A stretch of 8,168 nt of DNA from Paraspadella gotoi (Eukaryota > Animalia > Chaetognatha): assembly GCA_051294375.1 (NCBI GenBank), contig JBJCIZ010000051.1, forward strand, positions 1 to 8,168. Reading direction: 5' to 3'. The notes under the pieces are model-generated. The model had not been told where the DNA came from, did no database searches, and saw nothing but the letters and a program-made list of their open reading frames with translations. Numbering within the stretch: position 1 is the stretch's first letter; every line of letters starts with the position of its first letter. The position numbers and the translations under genes were made by a program. Of the stretch, positions 1,647 to 7,381 are shown one piece after another.

Positions 1647-1763
<117 letters not shown>

Positions 1764-2301
1764 ATGACGGCGTTAAAACGGTTAATGGATCTCAACAGAG
1801 AATTAGGTTAAACGAACTAAACTTTGTTATGATTGATGGAATTGACAAAGTAAAATCTATAGTCGGGCCTGCCGTGAGCAGATCCGACTAAAGCTTTGTG
1901 GATTATAAAATTTAAAGTTTTCGATTAAAATTAATTTTTGAAGCCAAAATTGTTGAACTAATCCAGTTTTTTCGACTTCGTCGGCGCAAGAACTCTACTT
2001 TTTTTTTCTAAAATAACTATTATTAATATTTTTTATATTAATATTTTTTCCAGCGACAAATCAATGGAAGGTTCAAACCTTTTTGGGTTTTCCTCCTCTA
2101 CTTTGACGTCCGGCCTTTGGACAAACCGAACCTCAGGTTTTCGTCTAAAGTTGAATTGAGCGAAAACGTCGATAATATTCGTGACTCGCGGACACATTTT
2201 CGATATTTGGGGTGAAAAATTGAAAAAGGCTTGTTAGAAAAAAATATTTTTAAAAATTGTTCAGTGTTCACTGATTTTCCTATCTTAACATAATGTTATA
2301 T

Positions 2302-2549: not shown

Positions 2550-4555
2550 TAATATAAAATTTAAATATATATAATTAACATCGTTAGTCCTTACTCCTTC
2601 CTTACGTCAAACTACAGTTATCGTTAATTTATAATCTATTTGAAACTTTTTTTTTTCCGATTGGTCTTCTATTGTAGACAAAATGTCTGTTTCCTTGACT
2701 CACGGAATTTTGAATTTTTGCTATTCTATTATTTTCAATCTTTCTTGATTTTTAAATTTTTTTTTCTTTTCTGGTTCTTTCGTTTTCTTTCTTTTCACTT
2801 TCTTTTTTTTTGGGGGGGAGGTTTCTCTTCTTTTAGCAAGATCACGAGTTTCGCGAGAGGGGGATCAGGTTTCCGAGAATTTCGGATTTTTTTATGGTCT
2901 CGCCTCGATTCGAACGTAAAGACCGTAACAAATAGTATGAATATGGGCATATTTCGAAAGCGTGGCGTCTTGGGAAGCCCTTGCCGGTGGAGCGCGAGAA
3001 AAATTCGGTCATCTTGACATAAAAAAATGAACCTAAAGTGGACTGGTTTTACGGTTTTTTTTCTTAGCTATCTTTAATTACATCGTTCTTCTAACCTATG
3101 TGGATTATTTTTTTGACCTTACACATTCTGATAGACTGGCGTCTTGGCTAACACAGGGTATCTTAATTGGTTTATAATTTTGCAAGCTTGCTTGTTTAAT
3201 TTAACAATCAAATGAACTGGTTTTTCGGCCATTTATTCGAACGTCACGCCGATAGTATTTTTTACTTTTTATTTTACATTTGGCAAGAGAGGGGTAATGT
3301 CTTTTGTTTCTGGGTGGAGCGCACGAAAGATTTTGATTTTGGTTAACATTTTATATTGGACCCGACCGAGCATAATGACTCTACCGCGAAATCCAAATCC
3401 GAAAGCCATGCCTTGCGACGAGCAACCGCGGTTTCCGAAAGAGAGGATTTTGGTGGCTCGTTTATTTTCAAACATTTTTCCCGCTGGAATTTTTGAAATG
3501 GAATATTTTTAGTTTTAATGTAATTTCGGTTATATATTTAGTATTTACAATTTTTTTAAATTATATTGTGAATAATTCGTGTTTGTTTAAAAGTTCGTCC
3601 CTAAACTGCATTGACCATCAATTTTAATGCAAATTTTTAGGACCCGCCGGTCCGTCCTAAAACGTAATTATACATTTTCTGATGTATCCAGGACCAGCCA
3701 GATATTTTAGTAACCTAATACGGAAGCTTGTTACCTTTTATGTTAAAATTTATAATTTTTTTATTATTTGTATAAATATGTTTAGACTCAGTATTAATTT
3801 TTTGGTTAAGTTTCGTTTTTACGATTTTGTTACGATTTTCTAGTAGTGAAAAATTTATTTGTGAAGTCCAGACGACCATAACTCAGATGCTCTTTTTCAT
3901 AAGAGAGATATTGACTTTCGGCTCACTGCCTATTTCTTGCAATTATTTGGCATTCGGCGTTTGGACGGGACTCTTCAGACTAATTAAACGCTTGGATATC
4001 TTCCGTACTTTAGATCATCAATCCGGTTTCTCTCCCGACGTCTTTTCCCTCTCCGCTAGGTCGAGGAGGGGGTTCTTTAAAACTTGGGCATCTACGGCCT
4101 GGAACACGTCTTCAAACTTAGGCGGGGAAAAACTCGGAATTCACGCGAGAAAGAAATTCAATAACTTTCAGATTAAAAACTCGACACGTGGATTCGCTGA
4201 TCTGCGGATAGTGTAAAAGAGCGACGGCACGCGGGATAGCGCGAGGGCAACGAGGGATATCTTATGAGCCGTGCCCGCTCGCCCAGATAATTCCGTCTTG
4301 CTTAGCAACGGATTCAAGTTGGAGTTATTACTTCGCATCCATTTTGAACACCATCCCTGTGCCAACTCCTCTCTCGGCGACTCGGCTCTCAGCGACGCAC
4401 TCGGCTCTGCACTCGTCTCTTGGTAACTCGGTTAATAATTTTGGCATTCTTAGAGATTAATACGCTCCAGAGATCTATGGGAAAACAAAGAGCAAGATTT
4501 TTCTTAATGAATTAGCGTAAAAAAAGAGGAATAAAACGGAACAGAGGAGGATATA

Positions 4556-4774
4556 AAGTTTTGATGGAATCGTGCCAGTGGAAATGAGATTAAATGGAAA
4601 AAACAAAAAAAATCTACTTCACTATTTGAACACCAATTTCTCATGAGTAGATGGGGCGACTGACATGAAATTTTGTATGTGGGTAGGAAAGTGTGTGATT
4701 AAGCTGGAAATCAAGTTTCGATGGAATCGTTTGAGTGGAAATGGAAAAAACCAAAAACCTGTTTCACTAATTGA
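4556..4774. repeat. Degenerate direct repeat, 157-bp period
   Basis: AAGTTTTGATGGAATCGTGCCAGTGGAAATG...TTCACTATTTGA (4556-4629) matches AAGTTTCGATGGAATCGTTTGAGTGGAAATG...TTCACTAATTGA (4713-4774). Confidence 0.85.
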
Positions 4775-4811: not shown

Positions 4812-4970
4812 ATTAATTGATCTAATAATTAATCAGTTAATTAATTAATTAATATATAATTAATTAATTGGTCAATCAATAAATTATTCAGTCAATCAGT
4901 TTATTTAGTTATCTATTAATTAATTATTCAATCAATCAATGTATTCATAAATTAATTAATTCTTTAATCA
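4812..4970. repeat. AT-rich low-complexity tract of TTAA/TCAA units
   Basis: Repeated TTAATTAA and TCAATCAA words. Confidence 0.75.
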
Positions 4971-4972
4971 AG

Positions 4973-5049
4973 TCAATCTTTATCGCCATTATTGTCGTCA
5001 TCGTCATCATCGTCGTCGTTTCTTTTGTCGTGGTCAGTGACGAAAAGAC
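4973..5049 (-). CDS. Candidate terminal coding exon, (G)LFVTDHDKRNDDDDDDDDNNGDKD*
   Basis: Minus-strand acceptor TGTTTGTTTTTAG| (AG at 5051-5050). It is in phase with the phase-1 donors at 5120 and 5369. Mixed GAT/GAC Asp codons, TGA at 4975-4973, AATAAA downstream at 4905-4900. Confidence 0.5.
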
Positions 5050-5120
5050 CTAAAAACAAACATTTCGGATCAAATTAATTTATTAATTAAAATATTGTTT
5101 TTTATTAATTAATTAATTAC

Positions 5121-5148
5121 CGCTAATGATCGTGGGCAGATCCGACAT
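5121..5148 (-). CDS. Candidate short coding exon A, MSDLPTIIS(G)
   Basis: CAAACA-ATG context and donor AGCG|GTAATT. A 71-nt AT-rich GT-AG intron (5050-5120) joins it in frame to 4973-5049. The frame stays open upstream to an ATG at 5241. Confidence 0.45.
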
Positions 5149-5369
5149 TGTTTGGGTAGCTTTGCTATTCGATGAAGAAAGAAACAAACCGCAAGAAACC
5201 TTAACTACTGCCGGTCGGTAGTTTGTTAAATCAAGCGGCATTAATTAATTATTTGTAATTAATTTTGTGATCGAGATTGTTGTTTTGTGATTAAGAAGCG
5301 AGACAAAGTGGAAAATAATTTTGACACGAATAAAAAAAAATTAATATATGTATCTGATCAGCTGCTTAC

Positions 5370-5397
5370 CGCTAATGACCGTGGGTAGAGACGGCAT
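5370..5397 (-). CDS. Candidate short coding exon B, MPSLPTVIS(G), paralogous to exon A
   Basis: CAAACA-ATG context and donor AGCG|GTAAGC. Segment 5366-5403 is 33/38 identical to 5117-5154. Confidence 0.45.
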
Positions 5398-5748
5398 TGT
5401 TTGCTCAAACTTTTTTTTTCATCTTTTGTTCTCTATATTTTCCATAAGCCTCACGAGCATATTAAACTCCAGTAAATATAATCCTTAAGTATTTGCCAGA
5501 GAGTTACCCTTTCCTCACCCTCCCTGTCTAGGACGGTGGTCGTCACCGGATCCGCCGCCAACTCCTTTCCTCTCCGCTACCGGATAAAAATCCTGATGGC
5601 TGATCCCAAACGAGACAGCAAAAGGGCTTGGTGTCAATCTGCCCTGTAAATAATCCTCAGTTTCTTGAATGTTTTTTTTTCCTGTTTTCTTTGATTTTGA
5701 ATATAAATTGTTTTTGCCTCTCGCTCTTTAAAAATATTTAAATATTTC

Positions 5749-5773: not shown

Positions 5774-6062
5774 GTTTTAAAACGATAGTCAGCTGCAATA
5801 GTCATAAATACAGATGGAAAACTTTACTATTCGTCTGCAACCAACTTTAGCTACCACCATTCGGTGCTTTGTTAATCCATTTGATTTTGTTTTCCCTCTA
5901 GCGTCAGTAATACAAATTTTATAATTTTATATTAAATAATAGTTTTAAATTTATGCAATGAACTTATGCAATGCAATGCCCGACTACATTTTAATTATTA
6001 TTTTTATGTTTGAGGTAGAAAAGGAAATGTTTGTTTACGTACGAGTTTCATAAAGAAGCAAA

Positions 6063-6106
6063 TTTCGAACATGTTTCAGCTTCAATGTAAGCTTTCATCA
6101 GCGCAA
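6063..6106 (-). ncRNA. Minimal type-I hammerhead ribozyme motif (minus strand)
   Basis: Minus strand reads UUGCG-CUGAUGA-A-AGCUU-acauug-AAGCU-GAAAC-AU-GUU^CGAAA. Intact core boxes, 5-bp helix II, palindromic ACAUGU helix III, weak helix I. Predicted cut between 6068 and 6067. Confidence 0.75.
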
Positions 6107-6207
6107 CAACAAATTGATTTGTGAAACAAATATTTTCAGACTTTTTCGCTATCTCTCTTTAAAATTCAAAGTCTGTGAAAATATTTGTTTCACAAATCAA
6201 TTCGTTT

Positions 6208-6247
6208 TTGCGCTGATGAAGGTTTGCAAGCCGAAACATGTACGAAA
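6208..6247 (+). ncRNA. Minimal type-I hammerhead ribozyme motif (plus strand)
   Basis: UUGCG-CUGAUGA-A-GGUU-ugca-AGCC-GAAAC-AU-GUA^CGAAA, with CTGATGA at 6213-6219 and GAAA at 6233-6236. Predicted cut after 6242. AATAAA follows at 6258-6263, then an A-rich tract. Confidence 0.78.
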
Positions 6248-6332
6248 TTTGTTTCTTAATAAAACTCGTATGTAAACAAACAAAAAAGAAAAAAAATATT
6301 GTTACGTTATATTTTTTAAACGGTTAGCAATT

Positions 6333-6407
6333 GGGTTAAGGTTGTTTAGGGATTAGGGATGGTTAAGGTTGTTTAGGGATTAGGGATGGTTAGGGTTAGT
6401 TAGGGAT
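6333..6407 (+). repeat. Telomere-like TTAGGG-rich tract with an exact 27-bp tandem duplication
   Basis: GGTTAAGGTTGTTTAGGGATTAGGGAT at 6334-6360 and 6361-6387. Six TTAGGG hexamers start at 6346, 6353, 6373, 6380, 6390 and 6400. Confidence 0.85.
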
Positions 6408-6836
6408 TTGTAATAAAAAGTTTTTTTACCCTTACCAGTGTCCTTCTTTATTTTTGCGTGACGATATTTCTATTCGCCGCTCATAAGAAGCGAAAAAAAA
6501 ACCGACCGCAAAATCTCGGTCGGCGAATGTAAAAATAAGCCATACAGATTTTAATTAATAGGCCATTAACTGGAGGATCAATCTCAAATGCCTAATGATC
6601 ATAGAATGGGAGTCAGTTGTCAGTGTCCTCACTAAATGTCAGCAATATTGTTAGTATAATATATCTTTAATTTTCTTTATCATTAAATTATAATTGAACG
6701 AACTGTAAATTTTTTTTCTGATTTTGTTTCCCTCCTTTGCCCCATATAAATTAAGTTAACTTTTCGACGACCGTAACCAGCCTCATCTACCACCGGTCAA
6801 TGGTTTGTTTGTAAATATTTTAATGTACAATTTGGC

Positions 6837-7286: not shown

Positions 7287-7381
7287 TTTGGTTACAAAGT
7301 AGCAGTTTTTATTTGTATTAAACAACGAGTTTTTCACACGTTGTTTAATACAAATAAATACTCTGCTATTTTGTAACCAAA
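7287..7381. repeat. 95-bp near-perfect hairpin (MITE-like palindrome)
   Basis: Perfect 20-bp inner stem 7308-7327/7339-7358 with an 11-nt loop. Outer stem TTTGGTTACAAAGTAGCAG/CTGCTATTTTGTAACCAAA has one G-T pair. Confidence 0.92.

What the first reader, a model, noticed from the sequence alone, without database searches (positions are those of the whole stretch)
6028..6282. Foldback element carrying two outward-facing hammerhead ribozymes, one per strand
Seen: a roughly 115-bp inverted repeat in which each arm has CUGAUGA-A-[helix II]-GAAAC-AU-GUH. Established: minimal type-I hammerheads with a tiny palindromic helix III are typical of Penelope-like element (PLE) pseudo-LTRs and are thought to cleave as dimers. 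PLEs often form inverted pseudo-LTR arrangements, whereas retrozymes carry their hammerheads in direct repeats. Inference: no RT or GIY-YIG ORF is nearby, so this is either a PLE inversion-junction remnant or a compact non-autonomous palindromic ribozyme element. A full read-through transcript would fold into a long dsRNA hairpin that sequesters its ribozyme and could yield siRNAs. Transcripts starting in the spacer would leave the ribozyme free.
Basis: partly seen in the sequence, partly recalled or inferred. Interest (0 to 1): 0.85.

Follow-up and report, generated by a model that had tools for sequence, protein, structure and literature searches.

The report
DNA transposon carrying Penelope hammerhead pair
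The mirror-image pair of hammerhead ribozyme motifs is real, but it is the middle of a 726-base repeated element with fixed ends and an 8-base target duplication, most likely a non-coding cut-and-paste DNA transposon that picked up a Penelope retroelement stub and spread it as a probably silent passenger.

Summary
Observation confirmed: arms 6028-6144 and 6168-6282 each hold an outward-facing minimal type-I hammerhead core. Contigs from seven runs of the same organism show a repeat with fixed ends at 5816 and 6541 and many different flanks. The window copy has a perfect 8-bp target duplication (ATACAGAT) and imperfect GG...CC terminal repeats. Other copies share the head-to-head junction and join it to the element's body; 91-100% of depth shows canonical GUC at both cleavage sites. 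Best reading (0.7): a non-autonomous Mutator- or Merlin-type DNA transposon captured a Penelope-like inverted end stub and amplified it. The ribozymes are predicted to be silent: the foldback removes helix II, the partner is antisense so no cis-dimer forms, and selection on the core was not detected. Opposite-strand hammerhead pairs are published (PMC4209133), and 5 of 115 metagenome loci show the same foldback. Their amplification inside a DNA transposon did not turn up in four paper searches. This scan noted a similar chimera in another genome (e1-9520041). No transposase, RNA ends or cleavage were tested.

The parts
5808..5815 (.). Left copy of the 8-bp target-site duplication ATACAGAT
   Evidence: the 8-mer occurs only twice in the window; a random 8-mer pair matches at 1.3e-4 (0.003 over the 25 offsets tried)
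5816..5840 (+). Left terminus / imperfect terminal inverted repeat; the window copy starts GGAAAAC, other copies start GGGTAAC after variable flanks
   Evidence: table 7 (loose ends before 5832: 12, 10, 14, 10 contigs in 4 of 4 runs); 13 of 25 identical to the right end
5841..5943 (.). Left body of the element; other copies carry 33-40 extra letters at 5905, so the window copy likely has a deletion there
   Evidence: tables 2, 5c, 7
5944..5987 (.). Low-copy stretch inside the element, likely a private insertion
   Evidence: depth 548 in X2 against 7,854 and 23,417 in nearby bins; joints 5924-5988, 5943-6000 and 5954-6003 skip it
5988..6027 (-). 40-nt repeated extension on one arm only; candidate PLE 'tail' (inferred)
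   Evidence: records 2 and 17 bridge it to the arm; 30-40-bp one-sided tail described in PMC3846280 and PMC8557442
6028..6144 (-). Left arm of the foldback (PLE-like end reading leftwards)
6068..6101 (-). Minimal type-I hammerhead core; triplet GUU here, GUC in 96-100% of family depth; predicted cut between 6068 and 6067
6145..6167 (.). CT-rich loop between the arms; variable, microsatellite-like in other copies
   Evidence: tables 3, 7; table 7
6168..6282 (+). Right arm of the foldback
6213..6242 (+). Minimal type-I hammerhead core; triplet GUA here, GUC in 91-99% of family depth; loop II is 4 nt shorter than in the left arm; predicted cut after 6242
6283..6516 (.). Right body, with a 27-bp tandem repeat (2.8 copies, 6334-6408, GGTTAGG-like) whose length varies among copies
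   Evidence: joints
6517..6541 (-). Right terminus / imperfect terminal inverted repeat ending ...TAAGCC, overlapping a small CCGACCG/CGGTCGG hairpin (6502-6523, read by eye)
   Evidence: depth falls 73-163-fold past 6545 in 4 of 4 runs; loose ends behind 6539-6542 with agreement 0.47-0.57 in 7 of the 8 listed rows
6542..6549 (.). Right copy of the 8-bp target-site duplication ATACAGAT

Best explanation
The hammerhead foldback is the central third of a 726-bp repeated element (5816-6541) with fixed ends, imperfect GG...CC terminal repeats and an 8-bp target duplication, which is likely a non-autonomous cut-and-paste DNA transposon that captured a Penelope-like head-to-head end stub and likely spread it as a passenger. 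Step 1 (inferred): a PLE insertion left two ribozyme-bearing ends back to back, perhaps with a 40-nt tail on one side, inside one copy of a small Mutator/Phantom-like (about 0.55) or Merlin-like (about 0.35) element. Step 2 (shown as pattern, inferred as mechanism): that composite was copied to many sites with the same ends and the same inner junction, presumably by a DDE transposase in trans. Step 3 (predicted): read-through RNA folds into a 115-bp hairpin that destroys both ribozyme folds; the second motif is antisense, so the dimer these minimal hammerheads need cannot form within one transcript of one element. Cleavage would be rare, and the likelier RNA product is double-stranded RNA that could give small RNAs against both the element and its parent PLE (untested).
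For: Ends: depth falls 73-163-fold after 6545 in 4 of 4 runs, with diverse flanks; left loose ends converge on GGGTAAC after variable letters in 4 of 4 runs. TSD: perfect 8-mer at exactly these ends. Cargo is fixed in the family: of the 32 records listed table 8 (3,025 more not shown), 16 span the loop with 11-27 other letters, 6 bridge the right arm to the right body (about 5 loci), and 2 non-self records bridge 5988-6027 to the left arm; one contig runs from 6250 through a 6358-6447 joint towards the right end. Arm depth is of the same order as end and body depth (ratios 0.85-1.8 and 2.2-2.7; crude). PLE type: same motif and layout as 5 of 115 metagenome loci, two of which have their own TSD plus a one-sided tail of about 30 nt; helix I and II pairs covary across 16 such motifs (rows chosen by me). 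Silence: helix II probability 0.0 in full transcripts; intact cores despite 11 arm mismatches are expected by chance at P=0.31. Literature: PMC4209133, PMC3846280, PMC8557442 for PLE ends; PMC8101967, PMC6446971, PMC3169594 for GG ends, 8-11-bp TSDs, imperfect or asymmetric TIRs and cargo.
Against: No transposase and no parent PLE were found; no genome was held. The TSD rests on one copy, and PLE insertions also make 8-10-bp TSDs (PMC3846280). The TIRs match at only 13 of 25 positions in the window copy. No listed contig spans the whole element, so the left body is tied to the arm only by a chain of joints. No empty element lacking the foldback was among the joints shown (32 and 12 not shown). 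Every difference between the two arms leaves the core intact, and the 10.1-11.1 pair is G-C in one arm and A-U in the other, which is what selection would also give. Summed contig depth is not a copy number.
Confidence: 0.7

Rival explanations
1. The element is a DNA transposon, but the hammerheads are working cargo kept by selection: they cut transcripts leaving the element in either direction, co-transcriptionally or as trans-dimers between copies, and so shape or limit its RNA.
For: Canonical GUC in 91-100% of depth at both sites. No core-box variant among the 40 rows shown in either table, while helix II and its loop vary. A U-G to C-G change at 6223 and a G-C versus A-U swap at 10.1-11.1 keep helix II paired. 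The ACAUGU palindrome can pair between molecules at -6.6 kcal/mol.
Against: The non-catalytic inner arm is equally invariant in the rows shown; P=0.31 that the core escapes 11 mismatches by chance; 107 and 22 variant rows were not shown. Loose-end consensuses show decayed core letters in some copies. The foldback abolishes helix II. PLE minimal hammerheads cleave poorly even as dimers (PMC4209133) and are dispensable for insertion in vitro (PMC11167929).
Confidence: 0.12
2. The whole 726-bp unit moves through RNA using PLE proteins in trans (a non-autonomous PLE), and the terminal repeats are incidental.
For: PLE proteins can mobilise unrelated sequence between pLTRs and leave 8-bp TSDs (PMC3846280). 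One run guessed to be RNA has some contigs at depth 226-331 against 3-30 for most others.
Against: In PLE-mobilised units the pLTRs form the ends; here the ends lie about 210-260 bp outside the arms, are fixed on both sides and are inverted GG...CC repeats.
Confidence: 0.08
3. The stubs were made afresh many times by a PLE that favours one site in an abundant MITE, as other notes of this scan argue for free stubs in other genomes.
For: Free stubs of this layout are common (5 of 115 loci); gap counts across the loop vary from 1 to 15 between records.
Against: 16 of 32 listed records share the same junction geometry, the variation lies in a CT-rich loop, and the stub has no duplication of its own at its edges, unlike L059 and L079.
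Confidence: 0.06
4. The hammerhead likeness is chance within an ordinary foldback MITE.
For: No Rfam hammerhead hit; monomer folds are no better than shuffles (z 0.26 to 1.18); the two motifs are one event duplicated; 115 metagenome matches to a similar pattern were mostly without helix II.
Against: Chance expectation is 0.01 matches per window; helix II, helix I and the palindromic helix III are all present; the family majority restores GUC; the motif aligns with those of unrelated PLE-type foldbacks.
Confidence: 0.04

Closest known systems
Inverted-pLTR insertions of endonuclease-bearing Penelope-like elements with minimal hammerheads (PMC4209133; PMC3846280; PMC8557442)
   Same: Minimal type-I core with palindromic helix III; two motifs about 100-700 bp apart on opposite strands (reported in Schistosoma mansoni); head-to-head ends; possible one-sided 30-40-bp tail.
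   Different: Here the pair has no TSD of its own, no RT or endonuclease ORF nearby, and is a fixed internal part of a larger TIR element with shared junction across copies.
Phantom/Tm1 Mutator-like elements (PMC3169594; PMC6446971; PMC13359780)
   Same: Non-coding elements with asymmetric termini (Tm1 ends read GGGTAGG and CGGTTAA inward; here GGGTAAC and GGCTTAT), G/C-rich first bases, internal inverted repeats (Tm1-ML) and captured RNA-motif cargo (histone hairpin in Tm1-HH); MULE TSDs 8-11 bp.
   Different: Tm1 has 9-bp TSDs and TIRs built of 14-bp tandem motifs; here 8 bp (one copy), about 25-bp weak TIRs, and the cargo is a retroelement ribozyme pair. No transposase seen.
Merlin DNA transposons (PMC8101967)
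   Same: Terminal GG, 8-9-bp TSD, TIRs from about 24 bp that can be highly imperfect (12 mismatches in 26), internal tandem repeats.
   Different: No DDE_Tnp_IS1595 transposase linked; no ribozyme cargo mentioned in the passages read.
Non-LTR retrozymes (PMC7229834, listing only; bioRxiv 10.64898/2026.07.22.740005, part 1 of 5 read)
   Same: Non-coding repeats with type-I hammerheads related to PLE ends.
   Different: Retrozymes are tandem direct repeats that release unit-length circles; here the motifs are inverted, one per strand, so no unit can be cut out of one strand.

Membership tests
Minimal type-I hammerhead (PLE type) | Core boxes CUGANGA and GAAA, NUH triplet | tested here: met
   family majority GUC
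Minimal type-I hammerhead (PLE type) | Helix II with G10.1-C11.1 and one unpaired base after position 9 | tested here: met
   4 bp with G-C on +; 5 bp with A-U on -, where 39-66% of family depth has G10.1
Minimal type-I hammerhead (PLE type) | Palindromic tiny helix III | tested here: met
   ACAUGU in both arms; intermolecular duplex -6.6 kcal/mol
Minimal type-I hammerhead (PLE type) | Helix I of 4-5 bp | tested here: inconclusive
   2 adjacent pairs, extendable only past a bulge or mismatch; PMC4209133 also reports a 2-bp helix I in D. virilis
Minimal type-I hammerhead (PLE type) | Self-cleavage (as dimer) | not testable with these tools
   only contigs were available; they show no molecule ends
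Penelope-like element (autonomous or its insertion) | RT plus GIY-YIG ORF linked to the pLTR | tested here: not met
   no match among 21 of 60 window ORFs scanned; genome-wide link untestable
Penelope-like element (autonomous or its insertion) | Head-to-head inverted pLTR ends | tested here: met
Penelope-like element (autonomous or its insertion) | One-sided 30-40-bp tail | tested here: inconclusive
   5988-6027 is 40 nt, repeated and on one arm only, but could be transposon body
Penelope-like element (autonomous or its insertion) | Own target duplication at the stub's edges | tested here: not met
   only A-rich or T-rich short matches; left 9-mer differs in other copies
Non-autonomous TIR DNA transposon | Fixed ends with many different flanks | tested here: met
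Non-autonomous TIR DNA transposon | Target-site duplication | tested here: met
   8 bp, one copy examined
Non-autonomous TIR DNA transposon | Terminal inverted repeats | tested here: inconclusive
   13 of 25 in the window copy; about 16 of 25 by eye using the letters of other copies
Mutator/MULE (Phantom) | TSD 8-11 bp and G/C-rich terminal bases | tested here: met
   against PMC6446971 and PMC13359780
Mutator/MULE (Phantom) | MULE transposase in a partner with the same termini | not testable with these tools
   no genome held
Merlin | Terminal GG and 8-9-bp TSD | tested here: met
   against PMC8101967
Merlin | IS1595-type transposase in a partner with the same termini | not testable with these tools
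   no genome held
Retrozyme | Hammerheads in direct repeats on one strand | tested here: not met
   one motif per strand

The most novel reading that the evidence does not exclude
A family of cut-and-paste DNA transposons has domesticated a pair of retroelement ribozymes, one per strand, which are kept active and cut transcripts leaving the element; its dispersed hairpins also act as a mobile silencer of the parent Penelope element. This would be a DNA transposon with functional self-cleaving RNA.
Probability: 0.12. Interest if true: 0.8.

Novelty: new variant of a known kind. Interest (0 to 1): 0.38.

Why it matters
It shows a route by which hammerhead motifs multiply in animal genomes without any RNA step: as cargo of a DNA transposon. 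Counts of genomic hammerheads, often read as retroelement activity, could include such passengers. One captured stub amplified into many decaying copies is also a natural test of whether minimal hammerheads are under selection outside PLEs. If the ribozymes prove active, or the hairpins feed small RNAs against the parent PLE, it would be a functional crossover between the two transposon classes.

Tried and rejected
Own-genome search: no genome held. Rfam: no hammerhead hit. Pfam on 21 of 60 ORFs: one weak hit below cutoff. Family-specific hammerhead pattern: 0 hits in viral and metagenome contigs; right-end 25-mer: 0 hits in prokaryote genomes. Relaxed pattern: 115 metagenome loci, none similar to the element by blastn at E<=0.01; 9 had helix II of 4 bp or more. 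L077 met the foldback filter but is a long dispersed inversion and was dropped, leaving 5 of 115. L063 has a GIY-YIG ORF (E 1.8e-5) about 2.5 kb from its motif; L087 and L096 gave no PLE domain, so the in-session link of this motif to PLE proteins is thin. The A-rich 9-mer pair at 6019/6283 as TSD: rejected, because other copies differ at 6023 and 6027. TG...CA ends of the foldback as LTR or Ginger ends: rejected, because the repeat continues on both sides. Helitron/HINE reading of the right end (recalled resemblance): rejected in view of the 8-bp TSD and inverted ends. Expression: no RNA holder listed; run X9 is only guessed to be RNA and covers low-copy flanks too, so its high-depth contigs are not used as evidence. 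PMC5785218 (dimer cleavage) was not held and is known only through its citation in PMC6765202. PMC11846391 passages were irrelevant. Supplements were not opened; those of PMC4209133 and PMC8101967 may hold similar cases. Look-ups of earlier findings by sequence returned nothing.

Full report
1. Observation. The window is AT-rich, repeat-rich DNA of eukaryote type with no recognisable gene: none of 21 ORFs chosen from 60 matched Pfam above cutoff. The inverted repeat is real: arms 6028-6144 and 6168-6282, with 102 matches, 11 mismatches and 6 gap columns, folding at -137.8 kcal/mol with z -19.7. A hammerhead-core pattern matches exactly twice, at 6068-6101 on minus and 6213-6242 on plus, against 0.01 expected. 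Since the arms are copies, this is one event, not two. Both motifs have helix II (4 and 5 bp), a 2-bp proximal helix I and the palindrome ACAUGU as helix III. Rfam's curated models did not report them, and isolated monomers fold no better than shuffles; PMC4209133 describes an unstable helix III and dimer-dependent folding for such minimal motifs.

2. The real unit. No genome was held, so I laid contigs from runs of the same organism (9 listed; 7 laid). The right end is sharp: summed depth falls 73- to 163-fold after 6545 in 4 of 4 runs, and loose ends behind 6539-6542 have agreement 0.47-0.57 in 7 of the 8 listed rows, meaning many different flanks (34 contigs in the three rows for X1). On the left, loose ends before 5832 converge on GGGTAAC after variable letters in 4 of 4 runs, placing the end at 5816. 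Exactly outside these two independently defined ends lies a perfect 8-mer, ATACAGAT, found only twice in the window; chance is about 0.003 over the offsets tried. The ends are weak inverted repeats, GG...CC, 13 of 25 identical in this copy. The element is 726 bp. The window copy seems to have lost about 33-40 letters at 5905 and gained 5944-5987.

3. The foldback belongs to the family. Of 32 records listed (3,025 not shown), 16 span the loop with 11-27 differing letters, 6 bridge the right arm to the right body and 2 non-self records bridge 5988-6027 to the left arm. No listed record spans the whole element; the left body is linked by joints only. One record (no. 9) has 442 unlaid letters before 6060, so some arms may stand elsewhere. 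Arm depth is 0.85-1.8 times the depth at the right tip and 2.2-2.7 times the body depth. The tool warns that this is no copy number; I take it only as same order of magnitude, and the flank counts as dozens of loci at least. At both cleavage positions the family has C, giving canonical GUC (91-99% at 6242, 96-100% at 6068). The window's GUA and GUU are private changes. The A-rich 9-mers beside the foldback are not a TSD, since other copies differ at 6023 and 6027.

4. Where the cargo comes from. PMC4209133 (parts 1-2 of 4 read) defines PLE minimal hammerheads, reports pairs 100-700 bp apart on opposite strands, and finds no monomer and low dimer cleavage. PMC3846280 and PMC8557442 (passages) describe head-to-head inverted pLTRs with an optional 30-40-bp tail. 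A relaxed pattern scan gave 115 metagenome loci; 5 are head-to-head foldbacks with a motif in each arm. Two of those have their own TSD (18 and 9 bp) and a one-sided tail of about 30 nt. None resembles our element in sequence. Across 16 motifs, 91.7% of cells pair and all 5 helix II pairs show changes on both sides; I chose these rows, some for their pairing, so this shows kinship of type and not selection in this family. The parent PLE was not found; the PLE origin is inferred from motif and layout.

5. The vehicle. Terminal GG, an 8-bp TSD, very imperfect TIRs and internal tandem repeats all fit Merlin (PMC8101967, passages). TSDs of 8-11 bp, G/C-rich first bases, asymmetric ends, internal inverted repeats and captured cargo fit Mutator/Phantom elements such as Tm1 (PMC6446971, PMC13359780, PMC3169594, passages). 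The Phantom lead came from note e1-9520041. Without a transposase the two cannot be separated; I put MULE at about 0.55 and Merlin at about 0.35.

6. How it likely works. Shown: fixed ends, many flanks, one TSD, shared inner junction, intact family cores. Inferred: capture of one PLE stub, then spread by a transposase in trans. Predicted: in transcripts of the whole element or foldback, helix II and helix I of both motifs have pairing probability 0.0; in transcripts starting in the loop, helix II reaches about 0.2 (plus) and 0.07-0.1 (minus) and helix I 0.003 or less. The partner motif is on the other strand, so a dimer needs two molecules or two elements in one transcript. Selection on the core was not detected: escaping 11 mismatches has P=0.31, and although no core variant appears among the 40 rows shown per call, 107 and 22 rows were hidden and the non-catalytic inner arm is as quiet. 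Against pure neutrality stand a G-C/A-U swap at the first pair of helix II and a U-G/C-G change. In one PLE tested in vitro, ribozyme mutants did not affect insertion (PMC11167929, passages). The hairpin as a small-RNA source against the parent PLE is an untested idea.

7. Novelty. Each part is known. The composite, a PLE hammerhead pair amplified inside a TIR element, did not appear in four searches of the held library that paired hammerhead or ribozyme terms with DNA-transposon terms (listings only, showing 25 of 233 papers); subscription journals and Repbase reports are not covered. This scan has noted free stubs in several other genomes and one similar chimera; these are unchecked notes. 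Another note suggests the host may be an arrow worm, which I did not test. Verdict: new variant of a known kind, interest 0.38; a 0.12 chance that the ribozymes are working cargo, which would deserve about 0.8.

Noticed in passing
window 7287-7381: A second AT-rich foldback of 95 bp (84.5% self-complementary); no 7-11-bp TSD within 15 bp of its edges.
   Followed up: partly
window 1860-1890, 5117-5154, 5366-5403, 5978-5987: A small stem-loop TAGTCGG...CCGACTA at 1860-1890; 1873-1888 matches 5131-5146, part of a 38-bp direct repeat, and 5978-5987 resembles the stem arm. Possibly ends of another small repeat family (Helitron-type resemblance is recalled, not tested).
   Followed up: no
run X9, record 29 (maps to window 6401-6541): An 895-nt contig at depth 226, against 3-9 for most listed records of that run, carries the element's right end plus 692 further letters: either a transcribed copy or a copy inside another amplified repeat.
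   Followed up: no
window 6541-6542: Loose ends behind 6541 start with C in 3 of the 3 runs listing them, so many copies may end GCCC or prefer C at the target.
   Followed up: no
window 6334-6408: 27-bp tandem repeat with telomere-like GGTTAGG/TTAGGG letters, variable in length among copies.
   Followed up: partly
L044:1107-1260, L050:1100-1344, L059:2926-3461, L079:868-1211, L104:303-503: Head-to-head hammerhead foldbacks in metagenome contigs; L079 and L059 have their own TSD and one-sided tail; L044's two cores are only about 10 nt apart.
   Followed up: partly
window 1650-1759; 4549-4629 / 4706-4774; 4812-4978: A (GA)55 microsatellite, a diverged direct repeat of about 80 bp, and an ATTA-rich tandem array.
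   Followed up: no
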